Shown here: piece by piece, positions 2,415 through 46,921 of the stretch
How the letters are laid out: the number at the start of each line of letters is the position of its first letter
Position numbering within the stretch: position 1 is the first letter of the stretch
DNA from: Gammaproteobacteria bacterium
Lineage (GTDB): Bacteria > Pseudomonadota > Gammaproteobacteria > Steroidobacterales > Rariloculaceae
DNA: 64,000 bases
Assembly: GCA_036381015.1 (NCBI GenBank)
Contig: DASVDR010000029.1
Coordinates: 96,676 to 160,675, forward strand
Direction: 5' to 3'
Notes under the pieces: generated by a model
The model's input: the letters and a program-made list of their open reading frames with translations, nothing else
Told to the model about the DNA's origin: nothing
Databases searched by the model: none
Position numbers and translations under genes: made by a program

Positions 2415-5414
2415 TCAGTAGCGCAGCTGGAACCCGACGGTGTAGCGCCGGCCGAGAACGTCGTAGAGACTCTCGTTCGTGCCGATGCCCGTGCCGCCGA
2501 ACGCCGACCAGCCGGCAATGAGAGGCGGGTCCTCGTCGAACACGTTCGCGATGTGCGCGAACGCCTCCCACTCCCCGCCGCTTCCGAGCCGGCCTCGATA
2601 GCTTGCCCGCAGGTTCGTGTAGAACATGGATTCGACGGAGTTGTCATCGATGTCGACGCCCTCGACGAAATCGATGTCCGCCACGCCGCTGTCGATCCAG
2701 CGTCCCTGAAGGAACAGCGTGAACGGCCCGTTGTCGTAGGCGAGGTTGCTCGTCCATTGCAGCTCGGGCACGCCCGCGCCGCCCAGCTCCCCGACGACAT
2801 CGCGCTTCGCGGCACCTGCTTCCGTCGTTGAGTTCTCGTCGAGCCAGCTCGCGATGAACCGCCACCGCAGGCTTTCGGCGCCCTGCCGGAAGAGATTGAT
2901 GTCGCGCGAGTAGGCCACCTCGAGATCGAGCCCGCTGACGTTCCGCTTGTCGACGTTCGCGAACGTGTTCTCCACCAGGGTGATGATGTTCGTATTCGGA
3001 TCGCGCGTGATGCGGCCGCAGAACTCCGCGGCGCCCGTCTCGAAGCATTGGTCGACGATTTCCTGGACGCCGAGAAAGTCGATTGCGCCGTCCACCTCGA
3101 TGTCGTACCAGTCGAGCGACATCGAGAGGCCGTCGACGCGCGCCGGCTGGTACACCGCGCCGACCGTGAACGTGTCGGCCTCCTCCGGCGAGACGTTCGG
3201 ATTGCCGCCGCGGAGCTGGAAGGTCGTGTATCGCTCGTTGTCGAGCTCCGGGTCCTCGAGCGACGTGCCCTGGCCCTGACGGTCGAAGCGCTCCTCGAGG
3301 CTCGCGGCCCGGACGTCGCGGGAAAGCGTGCCGCGCACGCGCAGCACGTCGTTGACGCTCCAGTCGAGGCCGATCTTCGACGCCCAGATGTCGCCGCTGC
3401 CCGAGTAGTCGGCCCAGCGCGCGGCCAGGCTCGCGTTCAACTGCCGAACCAGAGGGCGGTTCGCGATCAGCGGCAGCAGCGTCTCGGCAAAGAGCTCCTT
3501 GACGTCGAAGCGCCCCTCGAAGTTGTCGAGATCCACGAACTCGAGGCGGTCGTCGGTTCCGAGAGAGGCGATCGTGATGCCGCGAATGCCGCGCGCGGGG
3601 TCGTTCGCGAGCGGCGGCTGGTTCACGAGATGCGGCGGGCCGATCCGGTGCTCGATCTGCTGCTCGCGCCAAGATGCGCCGACGGCGAGCGAAACCGGGC
3701 CTGCGCCCCAGCCCTCGGAGATCTCGCTGCTCGCCGACAGCTCGGCATTGTTCTGCTCGAGGTCGGCGCGGACGAACATGTCGTCCGCGACCCACGCGAT
3801 CGCCTCCGGCGAGGCGCGCCCGCGGCCGAAGAGATTGACCGGCACGCAGTCATCGAACTCGTCGCTCAAGAGCGTGACGTTGCAAACGATCTCTCCCGTC
3901 GCCGGATCCCGAACCGCGTCCACGGCCATCGGCAGCCGGTCGCGGCGCAGGAAGTCGGAGAAAATCAGCTCGTTGTCATTGCGTCCGCTCTGCACGTAGC
4001 CCTGGAGCTCCCAGCCGCCGGAGAGCTCCGTCTCGAAGCCGACCGTGAACGAGAGCGTGTCGTTCGACATGATGAACCGGTCCTGCGCGATATCGGCCTC
4101 CGTGTGATAGCGCTGCAGGCGGAAGGACGGGATGTTCTCGTCGATCATCGCCTGATTGATCTCGTCGGGCAGGAATGCGTTGCCCGGGAATATCGTCAGT
4201 GCCCAGATCGAGTGCCCGAGCGGCAGCGTGCCGGCGCTGTCCGTCTCGGTCGAGCCCCACATGCCCTCGAAATAGAGGCGCAATTCCTCGCTCGGGTCGT
4301 AGGTGAGCCGCGCGAAGCCGGTGCTGCGCTCGCTGTCCGGCACGAACGAGCCCGAGCGCGAGCCGTCGGGGTAGGCCGGCGTGTGGATCGAGGTATCGAA
4401 GTCCGTGGGGTTATAGCCGCTGCCGCCGACCATGTTGTTCGTCCCCGTCCCGACGGTCGCGTGCTCGCCGAACTCGAACGGTGCGAGAGAGCCGTCGGGC
4501 AGGAAGTACAGCCGGTCGATCGACGTGCCCGGCGCGTCGATCATCCCGCCGTTCGTGTACTCCGTGGAGACCACGTTCTCGCGCGTCAGAAGGCGCGGAC
4601 CTTGCCCTGTCGCGAGGAAGTCGGAGCTCGTGACGAGGCCGATGCCGCGATACCACTCGCGTCCGTCGAGGTTATCGATGCGCTCGGAGTCGAAGCGGTC
4701 GAGCGCGCCGATGAAGTGGAGGTGCTCGCCGATCGGCGTGCCGCCCGCGATCGAGACCTCGTAACTGTCGTGGTCGTTGCGGCTCGTGACGCCGCCCTGA
4801 AGATGCGTCTCGAGGCCCGTGAAGTCGGTATCGAGAATGAAGTTCACGACTCCGGCGACCGCGTCGGTGCCGTAGGCCGCAGACGCCCCGCCGGTCACGG
4901 TTTCCACGCGCTGGAGCAGGGCTTCCGGGAACAGGTTGATGTCGACGATGCCGAGGCGGTTCGACGGCACGATGCGGCGGCCGTCGAGCAGCACGAGGGT
5001 CCGCTTCGAGCCGATGCTGCGCATGTTGAGGTTGGAGGCGCCGGCCGAGTCCGCCTTGCTCGCGGCCGTGTTCGGCCGCGCGTTGTTCACAAACTGCGGC
5101 AGCTGGTCGAGAGCGTCGATCAGCTGACCGGGCGCCATGTTGCTGAGCTCGTCCACCTGCACGACGGTGACGGGCGTCGGCGTCGTCATCCCCGTCGCAG
5201 TGATTCGCGAGCCGGTGACCGTCACCTCCTCGATCGCTTGCCCCTGAGCGCCTTCGCGCGGCGCTTGCGCCGACGCGACGCCGGCGAGACCGGCGGAAAG
5301 GGCGAGGCCGACGGCCAGGGCGACTGGCGACGGCGGCTCGGGCATCCGCCCGGGGTTTGCAGTCTCGCGCTCTCGTTGCCCTCGGCTGGTTGCACGCTTC
5401 GATCCCCTGCTCAT
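2415..5414 (-). CDS. TonB-dependent receptor (paralog 1)
   Basis: C-terminal ~1000 codons of the 1477-aa ORF. Start MSRGSKR has SD GAAGGAG 7 nt upstream (alternative MPEPP at 5345). Signal ...AGLAGVASAQA. Plug motifs EEVTVTGSRI, RTLVLLDGRR, VTGGASAAYGTDAVAGVVNFILD. Terminal ...GFQLRY. Confidence 0.9.
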   Translation of the reverse strand: MSRGSKRATSRGQRERETANPGRMPEPPSPVALAVGLALSAGLAGVASAQAPREGAQGQAIEEVTVTGSRITATGMTTPTPVTVVQVDELSNMAPGQLIDALDQLPQFVNNARPNTAASKADSAGASNLNMRSIGSKRTLVLLDGRRIVPSNRLGIVDINLFPEALLQRVETVTGGASAAYGTDAVAGVVNFILDTDFTGLETHLQGGVTSRNDHDSYEVSIAGGTPIGEHLHFIGALDRFDSERIDNLDGREWYRGIGLVTSSDFLATGQGPRLLTRENVVSTEYTNGGMIDAPGTSIDRLYFLPDGSLAPFEFGEHATVGTGTNNMVGGSGYNPTDFDTSIHTPAYPDGSRSGSFVPDSERSTGFARLTYDPSEELRLYFEGMWGSTETDSAGTLPLGHSIWALTIFPGNAFLPDEINQAMIDENIPSFRLQRYHTEADIAQDRFIMSNDTLSFTVGFETELSGGWELQGYVQSGRNDNELIFSDFLRRDRLPMAVDAVRDPATGEIVCNVTLLSDEFDDCVPVNLFGRGRASPEAIAWVADDMFVRADLEQNNAELSASSEISEGWGAGPVSLAVGASWREQQIEHRIGPPHLVNQPPLANDPARGIRGITIASLGTDDRLEFVDLDNFEGRFDVKELFAETLLPLIANRPLVRQLNASLAARWADYSGSGDIWASKIGLDWSVNDVLRVRGTLSRDVRAASLEERFDRQGQGTSLEDPELDNERYTTFQLRGGNPNVSPEEADTFTVGAVYQPARVDGLSMSLDWYDIEVDGAIDFLGVQEIVDQCFETGAAEFCGRITRDPNTNIITLVENTFANVDKRNVSGLDLEVAYSRDINLFRQGAESLRWRFIASWLDENSTTEAGAAKRDVVGELGGAGVPELQWTSNLAYDNGPFTLFLQGRWIDSGVADIDFVEGVDIDDNSVESMFYTNLRASYRGRLGSGGEWEAFAHIANVFDEDPPLIAGWSAFGGTGIGTNESLYDVLGRRYTVGFQLRY

Positions 5415-5647: not shown

Positions 5648-6754
5648 TCACTCCTCTGGCGGTGTCTCCTCCTCGCTTTCCTGGAAGCGATCGACCGAGA
5701 GCCGGAGCCATTCCTGCACGTCGAAATTGACCCCCGCGTTCTCCTCCCCGACGAAGCGCGGGTTCGTGGTTTCGATGTAGTTTCGAACGACCGTGTTGCC
5801 CTCGTGGCAGGCGTACTCGAAGAACTTGTAGTCCTCGTTTCGGGTCCACGGGTAGGAGATCTTGAACGGGGCCGTGAGGACCTCCGGATCTTCGACCCAG
5901 GCTTCGTATTGAAGGGTATTCGGACCGGTCGGCGTGAGCCGCTCCGTGACGCGCAGCGATGGGCTCGTCGGGACGGGCTCGTTGCTCGGGCCGACGATCA
6001 CCATCGGGGAAAGGCCGTTGAAGTTCGTCGTCTCGATCACGAGCGAGTCGCCGTCCCAACGACCCCGCGAGATGCCGAGCCACTGCCGTATCTCCGCCGG
6101 CGGCGCGCGGTCGTCGAGCGGAACGATGCGCGTCTCGTGGATGAGCTCGAGCCGGATCACGACGTAGCCGGGCGTCTGGATGATCTCCACCCCGTTGTTG
6201 TACGGGAACGGAATCATCGAAGCGGGCATTCCGCGGGTGATGCAGCGGTCGAGGGCGTTGAAATCGGAGATCTCGTCGAACACATCCTCGGACCAGCTGC
6301 TCTTCATGTTCGCCGCCTCCGCACGACCGGCTTCGGTCATCGGCGGAATGCGGCCGTTCGCCGGCTCCATGATCAACGACGTCTGGCGCAGCGGCTTGCC
6401 CCACTCGAACCAATGGCCGGAACCGATCCGGTTGGCCTCGAGCTCCTCCTGGTAGTTGTCGGCCAGCTGGGCCGCCTGCTCGAGGGCCGCGGCATACTCC
6501 TCGTCGGTGAGCCAGGCGCGCTCCCCGAGCTCGGGCGGGCGTTGAAACGGCGTTTGGCCCGCGGAGTCGAGAGGCCACTTGCCCTGCAAATCGGGATCGC
6601 CCCAAGGCGTGCGCGGGGCGGTCCACGAGCTCGAATCCGTCTCGGCCGTTTGCACGTTCGACGTCTCTTGCGCAGCCGCGGAAACGGCGCCGAGGCAGAC
6701 GGCGAAGCCCAAGGACGCCGACAAAGCCTTCGTTGACGGGTGTCGCTTGTCCAC
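5648..6754 (-). CDS. Secreted protein of unknown function (recurring 'GxWxGdsLVIeTTNF...TER' domain)
   Basis: ORF 5648..6820 trimmed to a GTG with GGAGGA 7 nt upstream. Signal peptide ALSASLGFAVCLGAVSAAAQE. Lies directly upstream of TBDR paralog 1 on the same strand. Confidence 0.7.
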   Translation of the reverse strand: MDKRHPSTKALSASLGFAVCLGAVSAAAQETSNVQTAETDSSSWTAPRTPWGDPDLQGKWPLDSAGQTPFQRPPELGERAWLTDEEYAAALEQAAQLADNYQEELEANRIGSGHWFEWGKPLRQTSLIMEPANGRIPPMTEAGRAEAANMKSSWSEDVFDEISDFNALDRCITRGMPASMIPFPYNNGVEIIQTPGYVVIRLELIHETRIVPLDDRAPPAEIRQWLGISRGRWDGDSLVIETTNFNGLSPMVIVGPSNEPVPTSPSLRVTERLTPTGPNTLQYEAWVEDPEVLTAPFKISYPWTRNEDYKFFEYACHEGNTVVRNYIETTNPRFVGEENAGVNFDVQEWLRLSVDRFQESEEETPPEE

Positions 6755-6929
6755 GTGATTCGTCCTCCGTTTCGCTTGCGTCGAAGCCCCGATCTCCCCC
6801 GGGGCGCGCGATGAGATCAAGCGTAGGCAAGCGCCGCGGCGGCGTCAAAAGACGCGCCGCGGCCGGTGCGCGGCCGCGGCGGCGGGATCGGGCGGTGGAT
6901 GCCGAGCGGGCTGCGCAATCGCGGTCGGC

Positions 6930-8483
6930 TCAGCCGTGTATCCCGAGCTTCTTCAGCAATCGATGGAAATTGGCGCGATCGAGGCCGAGCGAGCGGGCCG
7001 CCGCCGCGCGGTTGCCTCCATGGGCTCGAATGCGTTGCAGGATCAGGTCGCGGCGAAAGTCGTCGACGGCGTCCCGCAAAGTCACGTCGATCTCGGGGAG
7101 CTCGATCTCGGGCACGGATGCGCCGTTCGACACTGCCGCTCGGGCGTCGCCGTCGGCGGCACCGAGGTGCCTCGGCGTCAGCTCGAGCAGCTGGTCGCGC
7201 GGCTGCCCCTCGGCCAACGCGCGGATGATCGCCCGCGACAGCGCGTGCTCCAGCTCCCGGACGTTGCCGGGCCACGAGTAGCTCTGCAGCCAGCGCCGGG
7301 CCGCCGCGCCGAGACGCACGCCGCGTAATCCGAGCCGCCGCTGGTTGCGCTCGAGGAAGTAGCCCGCGAGCAGCAGCACGTCATCGCCGCGCTCGCGGAG
7401 CGGCGGTACGCGGAGCGGGTAAACGCTGAGCCGGTGATAGAGGTCGGTCCGGAACCGGCCGGCGAGCACTTCCTCCTCGAGGTTGCGGTTCGTTGCGGCA
7501 ATCAGGCGCACGTCCACGCGCCGGGCGCGGTCGCAGCCCAGCCGCTGTATCTCGCCGCTCTGCAGCGCGCGGAGCAGCTTCGCCTGCACCGGGAGCGGCA
7601 GCTCGCCGACCTCGTCGAGAAACAGCGTGCCGTCATGGGCGAGCTCGAACTTGCCGATCCGATCCTCCGTCGCGCCGGAGAACGCGCCGCGCGCGTGTCC
7701 GAAGAGCTCGCTTTCCGCGAGCGACTCGGGCAGGGCCGCGCAGTTGATATGGACGATCGGCTCCTGCGCGCGGGCGGAGTGATGGTGAATCATTCGGGCC
7801 ACGAGCTCCTTCCCGACGCCCGTCTCGCCGAGGATCAGCACCGGCAGATCGGATGGTGCGACCGTGCGCGCCTCGCGCCGCACGCGCTGGATCGGCTCGC
7901 TCTCGCCGATCAGCTCGTCCGCCGCGCGCTCGCCGACGCCCGAGAGGTTGATCCGGTGGTGCCGCTCGAGCTGCATCTCGAGGCGCTCGATCCAGTCCGC
8001 CGCCCGCACCGTCGCCGCGGCGACCGCGGCGAACGCGCCGAACACGTCGTCGTCGATCGTCTCGAATTGCCCCGGCCGCAGCGCGTCGAGCGTCAGCACG
8101 CCCCACGGCTCGCCCTCGATGCGCAGCGCGACGCCCATGCAGTCGTGCACGTATAGGTGGCCGTTCGCGTTGTCGACGAGCCCGTCGTAAGGATCCGGGA
8201 GCGCGGAGTCTGCCGGAAAGCGTACAGCGGCACGGCTGTCGAGCAGCCGGGCGAGCCGCGGGTGCTCCGTGACGACGAAGCGGCGGCCGAGCGTATCCGG
8301 GCTGAATCCCTGCACCGCTCTCGGCACGAGCACGCTTCCGTCGAGCTCGAGCAGCGCGATCGCGTCGCAAGGGAAGCTCGCGCGAAACGTATCCAGCAAC
8401 CGCTGATAGCGGGCCTCGCACGGCATCGACTCGGTCAGGTCCGTGACGATGCCGGCGAGGCGGCTGAAGTTACGCGTCGTCAT
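6930..8483 (-). CDS. norR: NorR, NO-responsive sigma-54-dependent transcriptional activator (GAF-AAA+-HTH)
   Basis: N-terminal GAF region aligns by eye closely with E. coli NorR (RFPADSxLPDPYDGL, HPRLxxxxxxxxxVRF). AAA+ motifs GETGVGKE, GAFSGA (GAFTGA), ESELFGH. C-terminal Fis-type HTH. Confidence 0.9.
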   Translation of the reverse strand: MTTRNFSRLAGIVTDLTESMPCEARYQRLLDTFRASFPCDAIALLELDGSVLVPRAVQGFSPDTLGRRFVVTEHPRLARLLDSRAAVRFPADSALPDPYDGLVDNANGHLYVHDCMGVALRIEGEPWGVLTLDALRPGQFETIDDDVFGAFAAVAAATVRAADWIERLEMQLERHHRINLSGVGERAADELIGESEPIQRVRREARTVAPSDLPVLILGETGVGKELVARMIHHHSARAQEPIVHINCAALPESLAESELFGHARGAFSGATEDRIGKFELAHDGTLFLDEVGELPLPVQAKLLRALQSGEIQRLGCDRARRVDVRLIAATNRNLEEEVLAGRFRTDLYHRLSVYPLRVPPLRERGDDVLLLAGYFLERNQRRLGLRGVRLGAAARRWLQSYSWPGNVRELEHALSRAIIRALAEGQPRDQLLELTPRHLGAADGDARAAVSNGASVPEIELPEIDVTLRDAVDDFRRDLILQRIRAHGGNRAAAARSLGLDRANFHRLLKKLGIHG

Positions 8484-8628: not shown

Positions 8629-9570
8629 ATGCAAAAGCTAACTTCTTCCTTGGCCGTCGCCGCCGCCGCCGCGCTCTCGCTGGGAGCCGCCGCGGCCGAA
8701 ACGGTGAAGGTCGAGATTCGCGTACGCGAAGTCGATCTCGTCGTCGACAACTCCGGCACCACGCATCCGATGTGGACGTACGGCGGCACGATCCCCGGCC
8801 CGCTCGTGCGGGTGACCGAGGGCGACATCGTCGAGTTCACGCTGATCAACGACGAGCACAACAAGCAAAGTCACTCGATGGATTTTCATGCCGCGCGCGC
8901 CGACGTGCTCGGTGAATTCGAGGCCATCAAGCCCGGCGACACGAAGCAGTTCTCGTTCGAGGCCGAGTATCCCGGCGTCTTCATTTATCACTGCGGCGCC
9001 GACTCGATGGCCGAGCACATCTCGCGCGGCATGTACGGTGTGATCATCGTCGATCCGAAGGAGGGGTACAGCTCGGAATATCCGAAGCCCGACCGCGAGT
9101 ACGTGCTCGTGCACGGCGATCTGTTCGAGGTCGGGACGTCGGCCGAGGACATCACGATGGGCCGCGGTTGGAAGGGCGTGCTGGTGAACGGCAAAGTCTT
9201 TCACTACGACCCGGTCCACGATCCGAACGCAAGCCTCGCGCTCGAGTCCGAGCCCGGCGAGCGCGTCCGCATCTACTTCGTGAACGCCATGATCAACGAA
9301 TCCGCCGCGTTCCATCCGATCGCCGGCATCTGGGATCGCGTCTGGGAAAACGGCAATCCGAAGAACGTGTCGTACGGCATGCAGACCGTCGAGGTGCCGC
9401 CGGCCCACGGCGTCGTCCTAGACCTGATCAGCCCCGAGGGCCGCGCGACGAACAATGCGCTCGTCGATCACCGCATGAGGCACGCGATGAACGGCGGCAT
9501 CACCGTGCTGATGAACTACGAGGGCGCGGACCCCGAGAAAGGCCGAGGCGACGCGCTGATCTTGCGCTGA
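8629..9570 (+). CDS. nirK: Copper-containing nitrite reductase family protein (NirK-like, compact 313 aa)
   Basis: Signal peptide. SHSMDFHAA matches HNIDFHAA (T1 His, catalytic Asp, T2 His). YHCGADSMAEHISRGMYG matches HC-x8-H-x4-M. C-terminal LVDHRMRHA matches the region of the third T2 His. Confidence 0.85.
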   Translation: MQKLTSSLAVAAAAALSLGAAAAETVKVEIRVREVDLVVDNSGTTHPMWTYGGTIPGPLVRVTEGDIVEFTLINDEHNKQSHSMDFHAARADVLGEFEAIKPGDTKQFSFEAEYPGVFIYHCGADSMAEHISRGMYGVIIVDPKEGYSSEYPKPDREYVLVHGDLFEVGTSAEDITMGRGWKGVLVNGKVFHYDPVHDPNASLALESEPGERVRIYFVNAMINESAAFHPIAGIWDRVWENGNPKNVSYGMQTVEVPPAHGVVLDLISPEGRATNNALVDHRMRHAMNGGITVLMNYEGADPEKGRGDALILR

Positions 9571-9593
9571 ATCACGCACCGGAGGAGCCGTCC

Positions 9594-10286
9594 ATGAAAG
9601 TGATACCGCTCGTCGGCATCGTGGCGGGGCTCGCCCTGTCGCTGCCGATCGCGAACGCGGCCGGCGAGGCCGAGTTCGTCCAACAGAACTGCGCAAGCTG
9701 CCACGCGTTGACGCAGCCCGACTACGAGGCACTCGGCGTCGCCGAGCGCGCGGAGCGGAAGGGACCGCCACTCTACTATGCGGGGAACAAGTTCCGCGAG
9801 GAGTGGCTGGTCGAGTGGCTGCAGGCGCCGGAGCGCATCCGCCCCGGCGGCGTCTTCGCGCCGGCCCATGCGGTCAGCACGCCGGAAGGCGACGTGATCG
9901 ATCCGGAGACGCTGATCGAGCATCCGGTTCTCTCGGCCGCGGAGGCCGAAAGCGCCGCGAAGTATCTGATGACGTTGCGTCCGTACGACGACCTCGTCGC
10001 CGCGCAGTCGTACGAGCCCGGCCCGATCAACCTGCGAATCGGGCAGATGAACTTCAGCAAGTTCAAGGGTTGCGACAGCTGTCATCGAGATGCGCCCGAC
10101 TTCGGCGGCGTGTCCGGGCCCGAGCTCTACACCGCGTGGGAGCGCCTGCAGCCGGCTTTCATCGCGTCGTATATCGCCGATCCGACGGCATGGGATCCGC
10201 ACACGATGATGCCGCGCGGATCGCTCCCGCCCGAGGAAGTGAAGAAGCTGGCCGACTACCTGAAGGCGCTATCGGAGGTCGAGTAA
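9594..10286 (+). CDS. Dihaem c-type cytochrome, secreted
   Basis: Inner ATG of ORF 9168..10286 with GGAGGAG upstream. Signal peptide MKVIPLVGIVAGLALSLPIANA. Two haem motifs, CASCH and CDSCH. Confidence 0.85.
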   Translation: MKVIPLVGIVAGLALSLPIANAAGEAEFVQQNCASCHALTQPDYEALGVAERAERKGPPLYYAGNKFREEWLVEWLQAPERIRPGGVFAPAHAVSTPEGDVIDPETLIEHPVLSAAEAESAAKYLMTLRPYDDLVAAQSYEPGPINLRIGQMNFSKFKGCDSCHRDAPDFGGVSGPELYTAWERLQPAFIASYIADPTAWDPHTMMPRGSLPPEEVKKLADYLKALSEVE

Positions 10287-10717
10287 TGAGCGAAGAAGTC
10301 ATGCACCGCTTGCATGGAAAGCGAGGCGCCGAGCGCCGCATGGGAAGCGAGATGAGGCGGCTGCTTCTGGCGCTCGGCGCCGCCGCTCTATCGAGTCTGC
10401 CGGGAGTCTCGCTCGCGGACGGCGACGCGGAGCGCGGTCAGGCGCTTTACCGGATCTACTGCACCCAGTGTCACGGACTGCAGGGTAACGGCCGCGGGGT
10501 CAACGTCCCGGACATGGCCGTAATGCCGAGAGACCACACCGATCGCGTCGAGATGTCCGCGCGCACGGATGAGGACCTGTTCAAGGCCATCCAGGGCGGC
10601 GGCAAGGCCGTCGACAAGTCGGTGCTGATGCCGGCCTGGGGCGGCAATTTCAGCGACGAGAATATCCGCGACCTCGTCGCCTATCTCCGCAAGCTCTGCT
10701 GCTCGGAAGCGCAATGA
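10286..10717 (+). CDS. Monohaem class-I c-type cytochrome, secreted
   Basis: CTQCH haem motif with distal Met region (LMPAWG). ATG overlaps the upstream TAA (TAATG) with GGAGG 7 nt upstream. Alternative starts at 10301, 10340 and 10352 lie before the signal MRRLLLALGAAALS. Confidence 0.8.
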   Translation: MSEEVMHRLHGKRGAERRMGSEMRRLLLALGAAALSSLPGVSLADGDAERGQALYRIYCTQCHGLQGNGRGVNVPDMAVMPRDHTDRVEMSARTDEDLFKAIQGGGKAVDKSVLMPAWGGNFSDENIRDLVAYLRKLCCSEAQ

Positions 10718-10734
10718 ACGCGAAGGAGGCGCTC

Positions 10735-11784
10735 ATGCTGTTACGCCACGTTTTGATCGGCCTGACCCTGCTGGGTTTCTGCGCCGCGGCCCAAGCCGAG
10801 CTTCGCAAGTTCGAGATGACGATCGAGGAGGTCGATCTCGAGGTGGCACCGGGCTTTACCGTCAAAGTCTGGGCCTTCAACGGTCAGGTTCCGGGGCCGC
10901 TGATCCACGTCAGGCAAGGCGACGAGGTCGAGGTCGTCGTCCACAACCTCACGACGCTCAACCACACCATCCATTGGCACGGCCAGTATCAGACCAATAC
11001 CTGGCAATCGGACGGCGTGCCGGGTGTCACGCAGAAGGCCATCGAGCCCGGCGAAAGCTACACGTATCATTTCGTTGCCGAGAAGCCGGGCAGCCTCTGG
11101 TACCACTGCCACGTCAACGTCGCGGAGCACGTGGGCCTGCGCGGCATGTGGGGGCCGTTCATCGTGGATCCGAAGAACCCGACGAAGCTCGAGCAGGAAG
11201 TCACGAAGGACGCGATCGCGATGTTCTCGAGCTGGAGCTCCGCGTCGGCGGATACGTACGGCACCGGCGGTCATCCGGCCGAGGTCATCGACTACTTCTC
11301 GATCAACGGCAAGTCACATCCGCTCAATCAGCCGCTGCGCGTCAAGAAGGGCGACGTGCTGCGCTTGCGGCTCTACGCCGTCACGATCCCCGTGTCGTTC
11401 CATCCTCACGGGCACGATGCCCTCGTGACGCACAAGGACGGGCTGCCCCTCGAGAACCCTTATCCCGTCGACGTGCTCGCGCTCCAGCCGGGCGAGCGAT
11501 ACGACGTGATCATGCGGATGGAGAACCCGGGCATCTGGATGACGCACGACCACGTCGAGCATCACGTGACGAACAACGGCGCCCATATGGGCGGCTCGAT
11601 GCTGGTCATCGAGTACGAGGAGATCGAGAAGCCGGATTGGTACATCTGGAAGAACATCGAGTACGAGCCGGACTTCTACATGAGCGAGTCGTTGAAGAAG
11701 CCGTACGGCATCCACGACATCGAGGCGTTCAAAGGCATCGATCCGTTCCTCCAGCGTCGTCAGCGCAGCGCAGCCTCTCACTGA
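10735..11784 (+). CDS. Two-domain multicopper oxidase (T1 site in the N-terminal cupredoxin domain)
   Basis: AAGGAGG 5 nt upstream of the ATG at 10735 (track start 10714 also possible). Signal LLGFCAAAQA. Motifs HWHG and WYHCHVNVAEHVGLRGM in domain 1. FHPHGH and THDHVEHH (no Cys) in domain 2. Confidence 0.85.
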   Translation: MLLRHVLIGLTLLGFCAAAQAELRKFEMTIEEVDLEVAPGFTVKVWAFNGQVPGPLIHVRQGDEVEVVVHNLTTLNHTIHWHGQYQTNTWQSDGVPGVTQKAIEPGESYTYHFVAEKPGSLWYHCHVNVAEHVGLRGMWGPFIVDPKNPTKLEQEVTKDAIAMFSSWSSASADTYGTGGHPAEVIDYFSINGKSHPLNQPLRVKKGDVLRLRLYAVTIPVSFHPHGHDALVTHKDGLPLENPYPVDVLALQPGERYDVIMRMENPGIWMTHDHVEHHVTNNGAHMGGSMLVIEYEEIEKPDWYIWKNIEYEPDFYMSESLKKPYGIHDIEAFKGIDPFLQRRQRSAASH

Positions 11785-12619: not shown

Positions 12620-14524
12620 CTACTCGGCCAGCAACAGGTGAACGGCGACGTAGCGCGCGTCCACGGTGTTCGCCGCTTCGTCGTAGGTTCCATGGGCCGT
12701 GAGCGCCCGAGCCGCGTCGCCCGCGGCGAGCCGCCGCGCAAGCTCATCGATGAAGGTGCCGAAATCGCTGAAGAGCTCGACACGACCGGGCTCCGCGAGA
12801 CCGAAGAGCGCGCGGCCGCCGTGCGGAGCGACCGTCGGCGGAGCGGGCAAGTCGAGCAGGTCGACCACGCGGCGGCCGACGCGCAGGTGATGCCGCGCAC
12901 CGATGCTCGGGTTCGCGAGGTCGAGCACCAGCCCGGTCGGCTCGAGCGCGAGGAACGGCGCCACGGTGCCGGCGTCGCCCCAACCGATGCCGAGCGACGC
13001 CGGCAGGTTGCGATGATCGACGACCGTGCGCCCTTCGAAGTCGGGCGGCGCCGCGCCGAACGGCGTGACGAAGCCGAGCACGCTCGCCGCTTCGCCCGGC
13101 GCGAGCGCGCCGAGCGAGAGCGCGCCGGTCGCCACCTCGTAGTCGCTCGGATCCGCATCCACGGCCGGCGCCGCGCCCGTGCCGGTGAAATCGAAGAGCT
13201 CGGCCGGCAGCCGGTCGATCGCCCGAAGCTCGAGATCGAGCTGGCCGTTCGTCACCGCGGCGACGGTGCCGTGAAGCCGCGTGACGAGCATGCGGATCCG
13301 GCCTTGCGTCGCGTCGAGCGCCGGCGCGGCATCGGGCGCTTCGGGATCAGCAGGCGGCGCGAGCTCGCCGAAGGCGACGATCCGCTGTCCGACCGAAAGG
13401 GCATCGTCGCCGAGAGCCTGTGCCGGATCGCCGATCTTGAACACGCGCGTGTCCGGCCCGACGTCGACCAGCACGGTGCGGCGGAAGCGTGCGCCGCCGT
13501 CGCGATCGACGACGAACGCGCCCTTGACCGTGAGCAGATCGCCGCGGCGCGCGGCCACATGGCCGTAGACGGCATCGACGCCGGCTCCTCCCACGCTCTC
13601 TCGTGCATGAACGATCTCGGCCGTGAATTCGCGATCCTGCACGTCCAGCGTGCCGAACGCGACCGTGAGCGTGCCCGGATCGAGCTCCGCGAGCGCTTCC
13701 AAGCCTTCCTCGCCGACGTACGCGGCGTCGCCGATCTCGAACGTCGTCGCCGCGGTGGTGTGCACGGTCACTCGGCCTTGGTCGCCGTCGCGCCGGTGCC
13801 ACGGACGGATCGCAATGGTGTACTCGCCGGCATCCTCGTCGACGTCGACGAGCGCGCCGCGAACGCGCAGCTCCTTCTCGACGACCGGTGAGACCTCCGC
13901 GACGATGTAGGGCTCCGCGGTCACGACCGGCGGGCTCTGCATCGTGTCGACCTCGTGGGAGGCCGCGAGATCGAAATCGAGCGTGAGGAACGCGGCGCGA
14001 CCGCGGGTGACGACGAGCCGGTCTCGATCGGGGAGGCGGATCTCGAGCTCCGTCACGCCGAGCGGTTCGCCGTTCGTATCGACCACCGTCGCCTGCACGG
14101 TCTCGCCTCCGGCCTCGACGAAGACTTCGGCGTTCGCATAGTCGAGGCGAATCGTGCCGCCGACGAGCTCCCCCGGCGCCAGCGTGACGGCGGACAGCAG
14201 GTCGGACAGGTCGACCAGCTGCGCGAAATCGATTCTCGTCGTGCTCGGGAGCACCTCGACCGTTGCGCCGTCGCTGCGATGCAGCGTGATCGAGAGCACG
14301 TCGACCGAGTAGCTCGCGAAGTCGCCGTCCGCATCGGTCAAGGCGACGAGCAGCGTGCCGCATTCCGCGGCCGTCGCCGCGTCGGCCGGATCGCACGGTG
14401 CCGGCGGGTCGGCGGTCGCGGACGAGCCTCCCGAGCCGCTGCACCCGCCGAGCGCGAGCGCCAAAGATATCGTGCCGATTTTCGCGGCGGCGCGTAAGAC
14501 GCGCGTGAACGTCGACGACTGCAT
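12620..14524 (-). CDS. Lipoprotein, DUF4382-like N-terminal domain, function unknown
   Basis: Lipobox LALALGGC. LLVALTDADGDFASYSVDVLSITL resembles the start of DUF4382. 634 aa with protein-like composition. Confidence 0.7.
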   Translation of the reverse strand: MQSSTFTRVLRAAAKIGTISLALALGGCSGSGGSSATADPPAPCDPADAATAAECGTLLVALTDADGDFASYSVDVLSITLHRSDGATVEVLPSTTRIDFAQLVDLSDLLSAVTLAPGELVGGTIRLDYANAEVFVEAGGETVQATVVDTNGEPLGVTELEIRLPDRDRLVVTRGRAAFLTLDFDLAASHEVDTMQSPPVVTAEPYIVAEVSPVVEKELRVRGALVDVDEDAGEYTIAIRPWHRRDGDQGRVTVHTTAATTFEIGDAAYVGEEGLEALAELDPGTLTVAFGTLDVQDREFTAEIVHARESVGGAGVDAVYGHVAARRGDLLTVKGAFVVDRDGGARFRRTVLVDVGPDTRVFKIGDPAQALGDDALSVGQRIVAFGELAPPADPEAPDAAPALDATQGRIRMLVTRLHGTVAAVTNGQLDLELRAIDRLPAELFDFTGTGAAPAVDADPSDYEVATGALSLGALAPGEAASVLGFVTPFGAAPPDFEGRTVVDHRNLPASLGIGWGDAGTVAPFLALEPTGLVLDLANPSIGARHHLRVGRRVVDLLDLPAPPTVAPHGGRALFGLAEPGRVELFSDFGTFIDELARRLAAGDAARALTAHGTYDEAANTVDARYVAVHLLLAE

Positions 14525-23060: not shown

Positions 23061-23139
23061 TCTTGGTGTTCCTCTGCTCTTGTGCTCGAATCCGGAGTAG
23101 ACAAAGGTATTCGATCGCGGGGCGGCGCGCCACTCCGAG

Positions 23140-43122: not shown

Positions 43123-43138
43123 TCGCGTGACACTGTCC

Positions 43139-43168
43139 GAGAACAACGGAGAACAACGGAGAACAACC
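43139..43168 (+). repeat. Three perfect tandem 10-bp repeats (GAGAACAACG/G/C) abutting the start codon of the VOC gene
   Basis: GAGAACAACG GAGAACAACG GAGAACAACC, then ATG at 43169. The repeat junctions form SD-like GGAG at two points within the array. Confidence 0.9.
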
Positions 43169-43651
43169 ATGCAACGAACGATGACGGCGGTCCTGGGGCT
43201 CACTGCGGCGATTTGGCTCGGTGCGGCTCACGCGGACACCACGGTGCTCGCGGTGCGGCTCGGCGCCGACGATGTCCCCGCGCTCGCGAAGTTCTACGAA
43301 ACCGCCTTCGGGTTGAAGGAGATCGACCACGTCGGGGACCCGCCGACCGAGATCATCATGCGCTACGGCGACACCGTCGCCGCGGCGAAGGCCGGCTCGT
43401 CGCCGGAATTTCTCGTCGCTCGACGCGAAGCCGGCGCGAAGCCAGGCGAGATCGCGCACGCGATCTTTCGCGTTTCGGACATCGCCGCCGCAGTGGCGGC
43501 CGCGAAGGCCGCCGGCGCCACGGTGAATGGCGACGTGGTTTCGGTCCCGATCGGCGGCACGCCGATCAAGATCGCGACGATGGTCGACCCGCAGGGCAAC
43601 GTGCTCGAGATCATGGAGCTGCCGGACGGACTCGACCACCTCCCGCACTGA
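43169..43651 (+). CDS. Secreted VOC (glyoxalase/bleomycin-resistance fold) family protein
   Basis: Inner ATG MQRTMTAVLGLTAAIWLGAAHA (signal). FYETAFGLKE ... ATMVDPQGNVLEIME. Confidence 0.7.
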   Translation: MQRTMTAVLGLTAAIWLGAAHADTTVLAVRLGADDVPALAKFYETAFGLKEIDHVGDPPTEIIMRYGDTVAAAKAGSSPEFLVARREAGAKPGEIAHAIFRVSDIAAAVAAAKAAGATVNGDVVSVPIGGTPIKIATMVDPQGNVLEIMELPDGLDHLPH

Positions 43652-43787: not shown

Positions 43788-45716
43788 ATGATCCATGGCG
43801 CGCGCAGCGGCGTGTGGGCCCATACGCTGCTGCTGCTTGCAGGCTCCGCAACGTCCGCGGCGCAGGCCCAGCCCCTGGTCGGCCGCACGGCAACGCCGCC
43901 CGATATCGTCGGGGAATGGCAGCTCGAGGGCAGCGAGGATCGGGGCGCGGTGGGCAGCCTCCAGCCGAACCCTCAGGATTACCTCGGGATTCCGTTCAAC
44001 GATGCAGGCCGCATGCGCTCCGACACGACGGCCGAATCGATCTGGGGCACGCCGGAATATCAGTGCCGCCCGCATTCCGCTCCGCATCAGTGGCGAGGGC
44101 TCGGCGGCGCGCGCATCTTGAGCGAGCTCGACCCGTTGACGCGCGAGGTCCGGGCCTATCACTTCCAGTTCTGGCGTTCGCTGGACCGACCGGTGTTCAT
44201 GGACGGCCGCCCCCATCCGCCGCCTTGGGCGCCGCACAGCTGGAGCGGCTTTTCGACCGGAGAGTGGGTCGGTAACACGCTCGTGATCAGGACGACGCAC
44301 CTGAAGGACGGGTTTCTGAGGCGCGGCGGCCCGCAGACCAGCGACATGCTGACGATGACCGAATACCTCACGCGGCATGACGACATGCTCACCATCGTCC
44401 AAGTAACGGACGACCCCGTCTACCTGGAAGAGCCGATGGTGCTGTCGACGATCTATCTCTACGCTCCGGACAGCCGGGTCAATCTGGAGCTCTGCAATGC
44501 CGGCACGTTCGCCGAGTCCGGCGGGACGAATCCTCATTTCGTCCCGCATCTGCTGCCGGGCCAGGACTTGCTGGTCCACGACTGGCTGCCGAACGAGCCG
44601 TGGGTGCCGTTCGATGCGGTGCGCGGCGGCGCGAAGACGATTTATCCGGAATACCGGCGCGTGCTCGACGGATCGACGACGGTCGACGCGCTCGAAGTGC
44701 CGGTGTCCGCCCCCGAGATCACGGCTCGGGCGAAGATCGATGCCCAGAGCCCTCGGGACGGTCAGGTTCACGTGATGCCCGTGCAGGGCAATATCTACAT
44801 GGTCATCGCCGACGGCAGGAATCTCGCCGTATCCGTGGGTCCGGACGGCATGATGCTTGTGAACACGGGACCGGCCGAGATGGGCGAGAAGCTCAAGAAA
44901 ACGCTGTCGGAGCTCGCGGCGCGAACCGCCGCGCCGGCGCCGAATCGGTGTTTCGGCCTGGAATGCCCGAACGTCCCGAGCGGCTTCACGAGCCCGTACA
45001 TGAATACCGTGATCAGCTCGCCGGCCCCGCCCAGACCGTTGCGGTACATCATCAACACAAACGCCGCGCCGCACAACGTCGGCGGCAACGCCTTGCTGGC
45101 GCCGGAAGGGATGGGGCGCGACGGCGGCGCAAGGATCATCGCTCACGAGAACACGCTGATCACGATGTCCGGGCCGGCAGACGATCCGTGGTCGACGAAT
45201 TTCGAGGCCTGGCCGACCGAGTCCTTTTACAGCGACATCTACAAGATGACGTCCTATTTCAACGGCGAACCCGTGATCGCCTACTCGACGCCCGCGACGA
45301 CCGACGGCGACATCATCGTCTTCTTCCGCCATTCCGAGGTCATCGCCGCCGGCGACATCTTTTCCACTGTCGAATACCCTCGCTTCGATCTGTCCCGAGG
45401 CGGCAGCATCCAGGGCGTCATCGACGGTCTCAACGCCATCCTCGACCTGGCCGTGGCGGAGTACCGCTCTCAAGGCGGCACCTGGATCATTCCCGGCAGA
45501 GGCAGGCTCTCCGACACGGCGGACGTGGCGTCGTATCGCAACATGGTGCAGATCATCCACGACCGCATAAAGGCGCTGATCGACGAGGGGATGACGCTGG
45601 AGGAAGTGCTCGCCGCGCGGCCGACGTACGACTTCGACGCACGTTACGGCACCGACAGCGGCGACTGGACCACGGCCATGTTCGTGGAAGCGGTTTACCG
45701 CAGTCTCAGCAACTGA
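43788..45716 (+). CDS. Secreted fusion protein: N-terminal recurring unknown domain plus C-terminal MBL-fold domain lacking the canonical metal ligands
   Basis: Signal ..LLLLAGSATSAAQA. N-domain ..STGEWVGNTLVIRTTHLKDG...MTEYLTRHDDMLTIVQVTDDPVYLEEP. C-domain is homologous to the 56334..57260 MBL, but HxHxDH reads NTNAAPHNVGGN and AHTDGD reads ATTDGD. Confidence 0.75.
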   Translation: MIHGARSGVWAHTLLLLAGSATSAAQAQPLVGRTATPPDIVGEWQLEGSEDRGAVGSLQPNPQDYLGIPFNDAGRMRSDTTAESIWGTPEYQCRPHSAPHQWRGLGGARILSELDPLTREVRAYHFQFWRSLDRPVFMDGRPHPPPWAPHSWSGFSTGEWVGNTLVIRTTHLKDGFLRRGGPQTSDMLTMTEYLTRHDDMLTIVQVTDDPVYLEEPMVLSTIYLYAPDSRVNLELCNAGTFAESGGTNPHFVPHLLPGQDLLVHDWLPNEPWVPFDAVRGGAKTIYPEYRRVLDGSTTVDALEVPVSAPEITARAKIDAQSPRDGQVHVMPVQGNIYMVIADGRNLAVSVGPDGMMLVNTGPAEMGEKLKKTLSELAARTAAPAPNRCFGLECPNVPSGFTSPYMNTVISSPAPPRPLRYIINTNAAPHNVGGNALLAPEGMGRDGGARIIAHENTLITMSGPADDPWSTNFEAWPTESFYSDIYKMTSYFNGEPVIAYSTPATTDGDIIVFFRHSEVIAAGDIFSTVEYPRFDLSRGGSIQGVIDGLNAILDLAVAEYRSQGGTWIIPGRGRLSDTADVASYRNMVQIIHDRIKALIDEGMTLEEVLAARPTYDFDARYGTDSGDWTTAMFVEAVYRSLSN

Positions 45717-45788: not shown

Positions 45789-46190
45789 ATGCGACCGAGC
45801 ATTGCCTTGCTGACCCTGGCCGCCTCGAGCCTGCTTTCGAGCGGGCAGGCGAACGCCCACCATTCCTATGCCGCCACGTACGACGTATCCCGAACCGTGC
45901 GGCTCGAGGGCCGGCTCGTGCGCTTCGAATACCGCAGCCCGCACTCCTATCTGCACTTGGTCGTGAAGGGTGAGGACGGTGAAACGCAGCGCTGGGCCGT
46001 CGAATGGGCCGCGCCGAGCTCGCTGGTCCGACAAGGCGTCTCGCGCGATACGCTGCGCACCGGGGACGAGCTCATCGTGGTCGCCCGGCCGTCGCGCGCG
46101 CAGGGCGAGTTTCGCAGCCTGATGCTGACGCTGGAGCGCCCCGCCGACGGGCTCAAATGGGGCACGAATCCCGACGAAGTGGTGGACTGA
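45789..46190 (+). CDS. Small secreted protein, DUF6152-like (mature N-terminus His-His)
   Basis: Signal ..SSGQANA followed by HHSYAATYD. 133 aa. Family name is from memory of similar 'AHHS' proteins and is not verified. Confidence 0.6.
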   Translation: MRPSIALLTLAASSLLSSGQANAHHSYAATYDVSRTVRLEGRLVRFEYRSPHSYLHLVVKGEDGETQRWAVEWAAPSSLVRQGVSRDTLRTGDELIVVARPSRAQGEFRSLMLTLERPADGLKWGTNPDEVVD

Positions 46191-46192
46191 TC

Positions 46193-46921
46193 GTGTCGGC
46201 AGTCGTGAAGCTCGGCTTCGGCTTCGTCGCAGCGATCGGCGCGAGCACGAATCTCGCGCTGGCGCAGCCCGGCGAGACCGCGGGAACGGCCCGCGAATCG
46301 GCCCCGATCGATCTCACCGGATACTGGGTCTCGGTGGTCTTCGAAGACTGGAAATACCGCATGGTCACACCGAGTCCCGGTATCTTCGACGGCATACCGC
46401 TCAACGCCGACGGCCGAAATGTCGGCGAAGCCTGGGATCCGGAAGCCGACGAGGCGGCAGGCGATGCGTGCAAGGCGTACGGCGCGCCGGCCATCATGCG
46501 TCTGCCCGGTCGCTTCCGCATCAGCTGGGAAGACGACCAGACGCTGCGGATCGACACCGACAACGGCGAGCAGACTCGCCTGTTGCACTTCACGGAAACT
46601 TCCGCGGGCGCACCGACGCGTCAGGGCCGTTCGTTCGCGGAGTGGCAACCGGCGCCCGGCGGCACGGGCGGCAGCTTGAAAGTGACGACCGACAATCTGC
46701 TACCGGGCTACATACGCAAGAACGGCGCTCCGTACAGCGAGCTCACGACGATGACGGAGTACTACGACCTGCATACGCTCCCGAACGGCGACATTTACCT
46801 CACGATCACGACGCGGGTCACGGACCCGCGGTATTTCCGCGGCCCGGCAATGACCAGCACCGACCTGCGCAAGCTGCCGGACGACCGGGGCTGGAACCCG
46901 ACGCCCTGCACCGGGCGCTAG
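46193..46921 (+). CDS. Secreted protein of unknown function (third copy of the recurring domain)
   Basis: GTG start 2 nt after the upstream stop. Signal VKLGFGFVAAIGASTNLALAQP. ..GGSLKVTTDNLLPGYIRKNGAPYSELTTMTEYYDL....ITTRVTDPRYF. Confidence 0.6.
   Translation: MSAVVKLGFGFVAAIGASTNLALAQPGETAGTARESAPIDLTGYWVSVVFEDWKYRMVTPSPGIFDGIPLNADGRNVGEAWDPEADEAAGDACKAYGAPAIMRLPGRFRISWEDDQTLRIDTDNGEQTRLLHFTETSAGAPTRQGRSFAEWQPAPGGTGGSLKVTTDNLLPGYIRKNGAPYSELTTMTEYYDLHTLPNGDIYLTITTRVTDPRYFRGPAMTSTDLRKLPDDRGWNPTPCTGR

What the first reader, a model, noticed from the sequence alone, without database searches (positions are those of the whole stretch)
5648..6754. Recurring uncharacterised secreted domain linked to the TonB-dependent receptors (copy 1 of 3)
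Three secreted proteins (5648-6754; the N-half of 43788-45716; 46193-46921) share a collinear pattern. It comprises a Cys-containing segment (RCITRGMP / YQCRPHSAP / DACKAYGAP), a beta-rich stretch, then G-x-W-x-G-(D/N)-(S/T)-L-V-I-x-T-T-(N/H)-(F/L) (the third copy reads GGSLKVTTDNL), then (V/M)TE(R/Y)(L/Y)....(I/L)....V.DP......P. Copy 1 is co-oriented directly upstream of TBDR paralog 1. I cannot name a family. The repeated association with outer-membrane uptake genes and small His-His proteins suggests a periplasmic binding or processing component of an uptake pathway.
Basis: partly seen in the sequence, partly recalled or inferred. Interest (0 to 1): 0.55.

Follow-up and report, generated by a model that had tools for sequence, protein, structure and literature searches.

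The report
Unannotated periplasmic beta-barrel protein family
Three exported proteins in this window are true paralogs of a very large, unnamed family with a lipocalin/avidin-like barrel; their conserved partner across genomes is a small His-His protein (DUF6152), not the TonB-dependent receptors.

Summary
The ORFs at 5648-6754(-), 43788-45716(+, N-terminal 240 residues) and 46193-46921(+) share a collinear domain. BLASTP gives 3e-8 and 1e-13 through copy 2, and both subfamily HMMs hit copy 2.

The domain matches no Pfam, NCBIfam or PDB-sequence entry. At least 8,000 homologs per subfamily are all called "hypothetical". AlphaFold models (pLDDT 78) show eight hairpin-linked strands. Their only Foldseek matches are weak ones to FABP/CRABP and streptavidin, so I read the fold as calycin-like.

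The proposed TonB-dependent receptor link is not conserved:
- A receptor lies within 8 kb in 5 of 80 genome loci of copy-1 relatives.
- A receptor lies near 11 of 80 loci of copy-2 relatives.
- The closest copy-1 orthologs are not adjacent to one.

The conserved link is the operon copy2-DUF6152-copy3, complete in 46 of 51 loci with enough flank. PQQ dehydrogenases recur in 24 of 80 loci. An MBL-like domain, with a degenerate metal motif, is fused in copy 2.

Best reading: disulfide-stapled periplasmic ligand- or cofactor-handling barrels serving periplasmic oxidative metabolism. Function is unproven.

The parts
5648..6754 (-). Copy 1. A 368-aa exported protein of the long 'c1' subfamily: signal peptide, G-x-W strand (G58/W60), a helical insert of about 125 residues, Cys171, an eight-strand barrel (residues 188-304), then the C-terminal E313-Y-x-C316-H-E-G-N motif.
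   Evidence: (identical to P0001, MAG TPA Gammaproteobacteria VF329_11055).
2415..5414 (-). TonB-dependent receptor paralog 1. It lies directly downstream of copy 1 and is co-oriented. ATG at 5414 is preceded by AAGGAG. The gap to copy 1 is 233 bp.
   Evidence: (generic TBDR matches only, all below the equivalog cut-offs).
6855..6881 (-). Terminator-like GC hairpin (11 pairs plus a T run) between the NorR-type regulator gene and copy 1. Copy 1 therefore probably starts its own transcript.
   Evidence: This is a consensus scan only.
43788..44507 (+). Copy 2, N-terminal calycin-like domain (residues 1-240). G42/W44, Cys93 and Cys236, and eight invariant His residues in the family.
44751..45716 (+). 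Copy 2, C-terminal MBL-like domain. The boundary is approximate. The HxHxDH motif is replaced by NTNAAPHNVGGN, and this holds across the family.
   Evidence: TIGR04559, 5e-6, below cut-off; Lactamase_B, 0.009, below cut-off.
45789..46190 (+). DUF6152, the 'small His-His protein'. The predicted mature N-terminus is HHS, and there is an invariant NPH motif. It sits between copy 2 and copy 3, 2 bp before the copy 3 start.
   Evidence: (PF19649, 90.3 bits against a cut-off of 27).
46193..46921 (+). Copy 3. A 242-aa minimal form of the domain (the 'c3' subfamily).
   Evidence: (identical to P0121, VF329_11225).
43127..43651 (+). Exported VOC/glyoxalase-fold protein directly upstream of copy 2 and co-oriented. 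A VOC-containing gene also sits two genes upstream of the copy-2 homolog in L081, with a DUF6152 gene between them.

Best explanation
The three ORFs are paralogs of one large, uncatalogued superfamily of Sec-exported proteins.

Shared module:
- An N-terminal G-x-W strand.
- An insert carrying the first conserved Cys.
- An eight-strand up-and-down antiparallel barrel of calycin type (lipocalin / FABP / avidin-like).
- A second conserved Cys just after the barrel. I infer that it forms a periplasmic disulfide with the first.

Three architectures occur in the window:
- A long form with a helical insert (copy 1).
- A form fused to an MBL-like domain that has lost the HxHxDH metal motif (copy 2).
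- A minimal form (copy 3).

What is shown: homology, export signals (by eye), the predicted fold, and the conserved operon copy2-DUF6152-copy3.

What is inferred: the barrels bind and hand over a small molecule or cofactor in the periplasm. They would work with DUF6152 and an MBL-like partner, in the service of periplasmic oxidoreductases, above all PQQ-dependent dehydrogenases. In this genome copy 1 may be co-transcribed with TBDR1 and could accept that receptor's cargo. That pairing is a local arrangement, not a property of the family.
For: Homology.

No named family, and a very large membership:
- No hits.
- At least 7,991, 7,657 and 1,243 homolog clusters at 90% identity for copies 1, 3 and 2; nearly all unnamed or 'hypothetical', though JGI calls many copy-2 homologs glyoxylase-like MBL hydrolase or cyclase.
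- 3,113 clusters at 50% identity for the copy-3 profile.

Fold:
- Two independent AF2 models, pLDDT 78.6 and 78.4, pTM 0.75 and 0.76, each with eight consecutive hairpin-linked strands.
- The Foldseek PDB hit lists are almost wholly calycins: SAHS/CRBP/CRABP/FABP for copy 1 and streptavidin/avidin for copy 3. E is about 1e-3 and target-normalised TM 0.45-0.51.
- The G-x-W motif and the Cys pair are invariant in all three subfamilies.

Partners:
- Of 51 loci with at least 1.4 kb of downstream flank, DUF6152 follows a copy-2 homolog in 47, a copy-3-like gene in 50, and both in 46.
- DUF6152 is adjacent to a family member in 21 of 80 copy-1 loci.
- PQQ dehydrogenase (PF01011, E=8e-185) occurs in 24 of 80 and 15 of 80 loci, across Alpha- and Gammaproteobacteria and Acidobacteriota.
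- Carboxylesterases (the representative checked has a signal-like N-terminus), GMC, RPE65 and GSDH genes recur.
- The MBL link is seen both as a fusion and as a neighbouring gene.
- A c2N-type and a c3-type domain occur in one chain in P0363.
- Tandem arrays of two to five paralogs are common.
Against:
- Across 116 c1-like proteins (median 46% identity to copy 1), 16 polar residues stay at least 95% conserved: E203, R209, E271, Y283, D289, E313, H317, E318 and others. That pattern looks more like a fixed active site or metal site than a diversifying binding pocket.
- Gene contexts are heterogeneous: RPE65, a UppS-like gene, an FG-GAP protein, PQQ dehydrogenases. They do not point to one substrate.
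- Signal peptides were judged by eye.
Confidence: 0.5

Rival explanations
1. The family members are periplasmic enzymes built on a calycin-like barrel, as are lipocalin-type prostaglandin D synthase, violaxanthin de-epoxidase and allene oxide cyclase (examples from my own knowledge). They would catalyse a hydrolytic, lyase or isomerase step on substrates later oxidised by PQQ, GMC or GSDH enzymes.
For: - In 116 c1-like sequences, 16 polar residues are at least 95% conserved down to 37% identity.
- The Glu of the 'TE' motif and the Asp of the 'DP' motif are kept in all three subfamilies.
- Copy 2's N-domain has eight invariant His residues.
- The genes sit among catabolic enzymes: esterase, SDR, VOC, MBL.
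- Some JGI annotations call copy-2 homologs 'cyclase' or 'hydrolase'.
Against: - Copy 3's family has no invariant His and no Cys beyond the presumed disulfide pair.
- Few polar residues are shared across the whole superfamily.
- The fused MBL-like domain has itself lost its catalytic motif.
- There is no similarity to any enzyme family.
Confidence: 0.22
2. The module copy2-DUF6152-copy3, and by extension the c1 paralogs, is a periplasmic system that handles a metal or cofactor (Cu, Ca/lanthanide or PQQ) and supplies periplasmic quinoproteins and other metalloenzymes.
For: - DUF6152 has a 99% conserved A-H-H-S at the predicted signal-cleavage site. His would then be residue 1 of the mature protein. 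It also has an invariant N-P-H and E72. From my own knowledge this resembles the N-terminal His sites of CopC and YcnI.
- Copy 2's N-domain has eight invariant His residues.
- The c1 subfamily has an invariant acidic cluster.
- PQQ dehydrogenases are the commonest enzymatic neighbour, and GSDH recurs.
- The recurrent membrane neighbour DUF6644 has a weak CopD match, E=1e-3.
- The best NCBIfam match of copy 2's C-half is 'quinoprotein relay system zinc metallohydrolase' (below cut-off).
- A 2026 preprint predicts other small periplasmic lanthanide carriers next to TonB-dependent transporters (doi 10.64898/2026.07.10.737718). From my own knowledge, ZinT/YodA is a lipocalin-like periplasmic metal binder.
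Against: - No metal-binding test was possible.
- Copy 3 lacks obvious metal ligands.
- The preprint's roughly 120-aa carrier has no conserved domain, so it is not DUF6152.
- No PQQ-biosynthesis or known copper or lanthanide genes were seen next to the copies in the window.
Confidence: 0.18
3. One reading: the domain is a dedicated periplasmic partner of TonB-dependent receptors in a substrate-uptake pathway.
For: - In the window, copy 1 lies 233 bp upstream of TBDR1, co-oriented, with no terminator predicted.
- The same arrangement (family member followed by a receptor) is seen in L030 and L075.
- It also occurs on a Croceibacterium atlanticum plasmid: DUF6152-DUF6152-family member-TBDR-MarR.
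- In L081 a receptor opens a co-oriented array containing the copy2-DUF6152-copy3 module.
Against: - A receptor lies within 8 kb in only 5 of 80 loci of copy-1 relatives and near 11 of 80 loci of copy-2 relatives. Pfam checks of the other large ORFs found none.
- The closest orthologs (72-77% identity) are not adjacent to a receptor.
- Copies 2 and 3 are 17.6 kb from any receptor.
- These lineages are rich in receptors (three in this 64-kb window), so occasional adjacency is expected by chance.
Confidence: 0.08

Closest known systems
Calycin superfamily (lipocalins, FABP/CRABP, avidin/streptavidin)
   Same: The predicted barrel has eight antiparallel strands with up-and-down topology. A G-x-W motif sits on an N-terminal strand. 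A conserved basic residue follows or lies in the last strand (R305 in copy 1, K/R226-227 in copy 3, R230 in copy 2). The Foldseek PDB hit lists for both models are almost wholly calycins.
   Different: No sequence-profile match to any lipocalin or avidin Pfam family. Foldseek E is only about 1e-3, TM 0.45-0.5. The G-x-W strand is separated from the rest of the barrel by an insert of 45-125 residues that carries a conserved Cys. A conserved Cys pair and family-specific polar motifs (FPYNNG, EYACHEGN) are present.
ZinT/YodA-type lipocalin-like periplasmic metal-binding proteins (comparison from my own knowledge)
   Same: Periplasmic, calycin-like, and working with other periplasmic or uptake components. 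Copy 2's domain is His-rich.
   Different: No Pfam ZinT hit. Copy 3 has no His cluster. Metal binding was not tested.
Metallo-beta-lactamase fold proteins; the nearest named family is the 'quinoprotein relay system zinc metallohydrolase' (TIGR04558/TIGR04559)
   Same: Copy 2's C-terminal half gives weak MBL matches, and JGI names homologs as MBL-superfamily hydrolases. Separate MBL genes neighbour c1 orthologs.
   Different: Scores are far below the curated cut-offs (26 bits against 280). HxHxDH is replaced by (I/V)NT(N/S)xxxx(N/H)VGGN in all 26 aligned homologs. There is no PDB sequence match even at E=10.
CopC/YcnI-type periplasmic proteins with an N-terminal histidine metal site, as an analogue for the partner DUF6152 (from my own knowledge)
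   Same: Small, exported, with an invariant His as the first mature residue plus a distal invariant His. A weakly CopD-like membrane protein, DUF6644, recurs nearby.
   Different: There is no sequence relationship; only PF19649 is hit. The structure and metal binding of DUF6152 are unknown.

Membership tests
Calycin / lipocalin-like fold | Eight (or ten) antiparallel strands forming an up-and-down barrel. | tested here: inconclusive
Calycin / lipocalin-like fold | G-x-W motif on the first strand (SCR1). | tested here: met
   G58/W60 (copy 1), G42/W44 (copy 2) and G43/W45 (copy 3) are invariant in their family alignments and lie on a short N-terminal strand in both models. Atypically, a long insert follows.
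Calycin / lipocalin-like fold | A basic residue at the end of the last strand packing on the strand-A Trp. | not testable with these tools
   R305 is invariant in copy 1's family. K/R occurs at 226-227 of copy 3 and R230 in copy 2. Packing could not be checked without coordinates.
Pfam lipocalin/avidin/FABP/ZinT families | Profile match above the gathering threshold. | tested here: not met
   There is no such hit for the three proteins or for any of the 51 copy-3 homologs, even at E up to 1.
TonB-dependent-receptor-coupled periplasmic uptake component | Conserved genomic linkage to a TonB-dependent receptor across genomes. | tested here: not met
   Receptors occur in 5 of 80 and 11 of 80 loci. 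The closest orthologs are not adjacent to one.
Metallo-beta-lactamase superfamily (C-half of copy 2) | HxHxDH metal-binding motif. | tested here: not met
   The motif reads NTNAAPHNVGGN in the window protein. The degenerate form is conserved in 26 homologs.
Metallo-beta-lactamase superfamily (C-half of copy 2) | Profile match above the curated threshold. | tested here: inconclusive
   PF00753: E=0.009, 16.4 bits against 22.7. TIGR04559: 26.2 bits against 280. JGI names homologs as MBL hydrolases.
DUF6152 (PF19649), for the partner gene 45789-46190 | Profile match above the gathering threshold. | tested here: met
   90.3 bits against a cut-off of 27, E=9e-26.

The most novel reading that the evidence does not exclude
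The conserved three-gene module is a previously undescribed periplasmic delivery system. It comprises a His-rich calycin-like domain fused to a degenerate MBL fold, then DUF6152 with an N-terminal His-His, then a minimal calycin-like protein. It would deliver a metal or cofactor (copper, lanthanide/calcium or PQQ) to periplasmic quinoproteins. The expanded c1 paralogs would be its specialised relatives.
Probability: 0.15. Interest if true: 0.75.

Novelty: new variant of a known kind. Interest (0 to 1): 0.45.

Why it matters
At least 8,000 90%-identity clusters per subfamily are found in soil and marine Proteobacteria and Acidobacteriota. They carry no domain annotation, and nearly all no name. 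Many genomes hold several copies, often in tandem arrays.

Defining the family and its obligate partner DUF6152 gives two 'domains of unknown function' a testable context. That context is periplasmic oxidative metabolism by PQQ-dependent dehydrogenases, a field where cofactor and lanthanide supply and substrate hand-over are open questions.

The result also corrects a tempting but unsupported link to TonB-dependent uptake.

Tried and rejected
- **Family searches.** Pfam and NCBIfam scans of the three proteins, and of all 51 copy-3 homologs, gave nothing.
- **PDB sequence and profile searches.** These found no relatives.
- **Rfam.** A scan for a riboswitch in the copy1-TBDR1 gap found no hit anywhere in the window.
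- **First receptor detector.** An HMM built from the window's three paralogs missed other receptor subfamilies; it failed on the Pfam-confirmed receptor in L081. I therefore rebuilt broader HMMs, added an acidobacterial-type model, searched all six frames, and checked the remaining large ORFs in Pfam. The count rose only from 3 to 5 of 80.
- **First DUF6152 HMM.** It under-counted and was replaced by jackhmmer on six-frame ORFs.
- **Literature.** Searches for DUF6152 and DUF6644 returned no papers.
- **Plasmid search.** Only 7 distant hits.
- **Fusions.** A Pfam scan of longer family members for informative fusions found nothing. They turned out to be tandem duplications or fusions within the same system.
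- **Lipoprotein.** Rejected. The Cys in copy 1's signal region has Val at position -1 and is not conserved in alignment A1.

Full report
**What is there**

The three ORFs exist as described.
- Copy 1 (5648-6754, minus strand, 368 aa) is identical to the deposited hypothetical protein VF329_11055 of a Gammaproteobacteria MAG on a 229-kb contig.
- Copy 3 (46193-46921, plus strand, 242 aa) is identical to VF329_11225 of the same MAG.
- Copy 2 (43788-45716, plus strand) is 642 aa.

**Is the shared pattern real?**

Yes.
- BLASTP gives copy1-copy2 E=3e-8 and copy2-copy3 E=1e-13. Copy1-copy3 is only 0.024, so copy 2 bridges the other two.
- HMMs built from homologs of copy 1 (alignment A1) and copy 3 (A2) were run against every ORF of the window. 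Each finds its own copy plus copy 2 (9.5e-7 and 2.8e-13) and nothing else. There are therefore exactly three copies here.
- Profile-profile comparison of A1 and A2 is collinear but modest: E=8.8e-4, probability 23%.
- It adds two features. One is an invariant D-x-x-G-x-W near the mature N-terminus. The other is a second invariant Cys just after the barrel: C316, C236 and C239, paired with C171, C93 and C93.
- All three N-termini have a basic-hydrophobic-AxA layout typical of Sec signal peptides. This was judged by eye.

**What family is it?**

None that is named.
- Pfam, NCBIfam and PDB sequence searches find nothing for the shared domain. This holds for single sequences, for whole alignments, and when all 51 copy-3 homologs are scanned individually.
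- The family is nevertheless huge. There are at least 7,991 and 7,657 clusters at 90% identity for copies 1 and 3; both searches hit the candidate cap. Copy 2 has 1,243. Copy-1 and copy-3 homologs are unnamed or 'hypothetical'; JGI calls many copy-2 homologs glyoxylase-like MBL hydrolase or cyclase.
- An exhaustive profile search with A2 finds 3,113 clusters at 50% identity.
- Hosts are Gammaproteobacteria MAGs (including Steroidobacteraceae), Sphingomonadales, Caulobacteraceae, Vicinamibacterales and Bryobacterales.

**Fold**

- AlphaFold2 models of copy 1 and copy 3 reach pLDDT 78.6 and 78.4, and pTM 0.75 and 0.76.
- Each shows a short N-terminal strand carrying G-x-W, then an insert, then eight consecutive hairpin-connected strands. 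The insert is helical and about 125 residues in copy 1, and about 60 residues in copy 3.
- Foldseek against the PDB returns only weak matches, but the listed hits are almost wholly calycin-superfamily members. Copy 1 matches SAHS, CRBP, CRABP and FABP (best E=1.7e-3). Copy 3 matches streptavidin and avidin (best E=1.4e-3). Target-normalised TM is 0.45-0.51.
- I therefore read the domain as a calycin-like barrel stapled by one disulfide.

**Copy 2's second half**

- The ~640-680-aa architecture is conserved in all 120 listed homologs.
- The C-terminal half gives sub-threshold MBL matches: PF00753 at E=0.009 and TIGR04559 'quinoprotein relay system zinc metallohydrolase 2' at 5e-6.
- The HxHxDH motif is replaced by (I/V)NT(N/S)xxxx(N/H)VGGN in every aligned homolog.
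- The N-domain carries eight invariant His residues.

**Testing the TonB-dependent receptor link**

In the window:
- Copy 1 is followed, after 233 bp with no predicted terminator, by TBDR1. TBDR1 starts with an ATG at 5414 behind an AAGGAG.
- A strong hairpin at 6855-6881 separates copy 1 from the upstream NorR-type regulator. Co-transcription of copy 1 and TBDR1 is plausible.
- Copies 2 and 3 are 17.6 kb from the nearest of the window's three receptors.

Across genomes:
- I fetched 80 loci of copy-1 relatives from reference genomes with 8-kb flanks and 80 metagenome loci of copy-2 relatives.
- My first receptor HMM was too narrow. I rebuilt it from several subfamilies, added an acidobacterial-type model, searched all six frames, and checked the remaining large ORFs in Pfam.
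- Result: receptors occur in 5 of 80 and 11 of 80 loci. Only L030 and L075 repeat the window's arrangement.
- The closest orthologs of copy 1 (72-77% identity) share a different synteny: M3 peptidase, a 348-aa MBL, an SDR, a small ORF, the c1 gene, a small ORF, then an FG-GAP/Ig protein. A receptor lies 4.5 kb further downstream in two of the three.
- Individual counter-examples exist: L081, and a Croceibacterium atlanticum plasmid.
- These lineages are receptor-rich, so this frequency is not an enrichment. The background density comes from my own knowledge and was not measured.

**What is conserved instead**

1. **The operon copy2-DUF6152-copy3.** Among 51 loci with at least 1.4 kb downstream of a copy-2 homolog, 47 have DUF6152 and 50 have a copy-3-like gene, co-oriented within 1.5 kb. 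Forty-six have both. Among 67 loci with at least 520 bp downstream, 63 have DUF6152. In the window the DUF6152 stop and the copy-3 start are 2 bp apart.
2. **DUF6152 next to family members elsewhere.** In 21 of 80 copy-1 loci, DUF6152 sits beside a family member.
3. **The DUF6152 motifs.** A-H-H-S is 99% conserved at the predicted signal-peptide cut, and N-P-H and E72 are also conserved. His is therefore probably the first mature residue.
4. **PQQ-dependent eight-bladed dehydrogenases.** PF01011 (E=8e-185) occurs in 24 of 80 and 15 of 80 loci, across several phyla and often two or three per locus. Carboxylesterases (the representative has a signal-like N-terminus), DUF6644 membrane proteins, GMC oxidoreductases, RPE65 oxygenases and GSDH also recur.
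5. **Self-association.** Tandem arrays of two to five paralogs are common. So are two-domain chains, including one chain with a c2N-type and a c3-type domain.
6. **An MBL partner.** It is either fused or adjacent.

**How it most likely works**

Shown: homology, the predicted fold, and the conserved operon. The export signal was judged by eye.

Inferred: these are periplasmic barrels that bind and pass on a small molecule or cofactor. They would work with DUF6152 and an MBL-like scaffold, alongside periplasmic oxidoreductases.

I cannot separate a carrier role from two rivals.
- **Enzyme.** Sixteen polar residues are at least 95% conserved across 116 c1-like proteins down to 37% identity. The Glu of 'TE' and the Asp of 'DP' are kept in all subfamilies.
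- **Metal or cofactor handling.** The evidence is the His-His terminus of DUF6152, the eight invariant His in copy 2, the acidic cluster in c1, the PQQ-enzyme neighbours, and the weak CopD similarity of DUF6644. A 2026 preprint predicts unrelated small periplasmic lanthanide carriers beside TonB-dependent transporters in the same phyla. That shows the idea is current, but the protein it describes is a different one.

**Novelty and verdict**

Its fold appears to be a variant of a known kind (calycin-like) with unusual additions: the insert, the disulfide and the MBL-like fusion. The proposed receptor linkage is not a family property. The DUF6152 linkage is.

Interest is moderate. This is a solid lead for defining two unknown-function families and a conserved periplasmic module, but there is no demonstrated mechanism.

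Noticed in passing
window 45789-46190 (+) and 94 homologs in fetched loci: In DUF6152, A-H-H-S is 99% conserved exactly at the predicted signal-peptide cleavage site. N-P-H, W69 and E72 are also invariant. This suggests an N-terminal histidine metal site. No literature on this family was found.
   Followed up: partly
window 44751-45716 (+): The MBL-like half of copy 2 lacks the HxHxDH motif in all 26 aligned homologs. It has no PDB sequence relative even at E=10. It may be a non-catalytic or re-purposed MBL fold.
   Followed up: partly
window 6930-8483 (-), 8629-11784 (+): A NorR-type sigma-54 activator (NF003451, 707 bits) is divergent from an operon encoding a copper-nitrite-reductase-like two-domain cupredoxin, two c-type cytochromes and a second multicopper-oxidase-like protein.
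   Followed up: no
window 21840-26130 (-): TBDR paralog 3 overlaps a PQQ-type glucose/sorbosone dehydrogenase gene (GSDH, PF07995, E=1e-114) by 14 bp. In other genomes GSDH sits next to members of the barrel family instead (L081, L107, L111, L114, L117, L134, L135).
   Followed up: partly
window 30569-31568 (-); L009, L012, L021: A 205-aa membrane protein and a 129-aa winged-helix regulator in the window have homologs directly upstream of copy-1 relatives in three gammaproteobacterial MAG loci. In L009 a UppS-like prenyltransferase gene lies between them and the copy-1 relative.
   Followed up: no
L041, L042, L046, L049, L052, L062, L063, L067, L072, L076, L077: Sphingomonadales share a conserved gene cluster. 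Its order is PQQ dehydrogenase, two to five tandem c1 paralogs, carboxylesterase, two DUF6644 membrane proteins, a second PQQ dehydrogenase, a short family member and DUF6152.
   Followed up: partly
L011, L013, L026, L027, L029, L032, L033, L035: In Erythrobacteraceae, an RPE65-family (carotenoid/stilbene-cleaving) oxygenase lies a few kb upstream of, or directly before, the copy-1 relative. MarR and MFS genes are alongside.
   Followed up: no
window 12620-14524 (-): A 634-aa exported protein, probably a lipoprotein (signal region ends LALGGCSG), lies divergent from TBDR paralog 2. It has no NCBIfam match.
   Followed up: no
window 39486-41114 (+): A di-haem oxidoreductase/peroxidase-like protein (PF06537) lies a few kb upstream of the copy-2 operon.
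   Followed up: no
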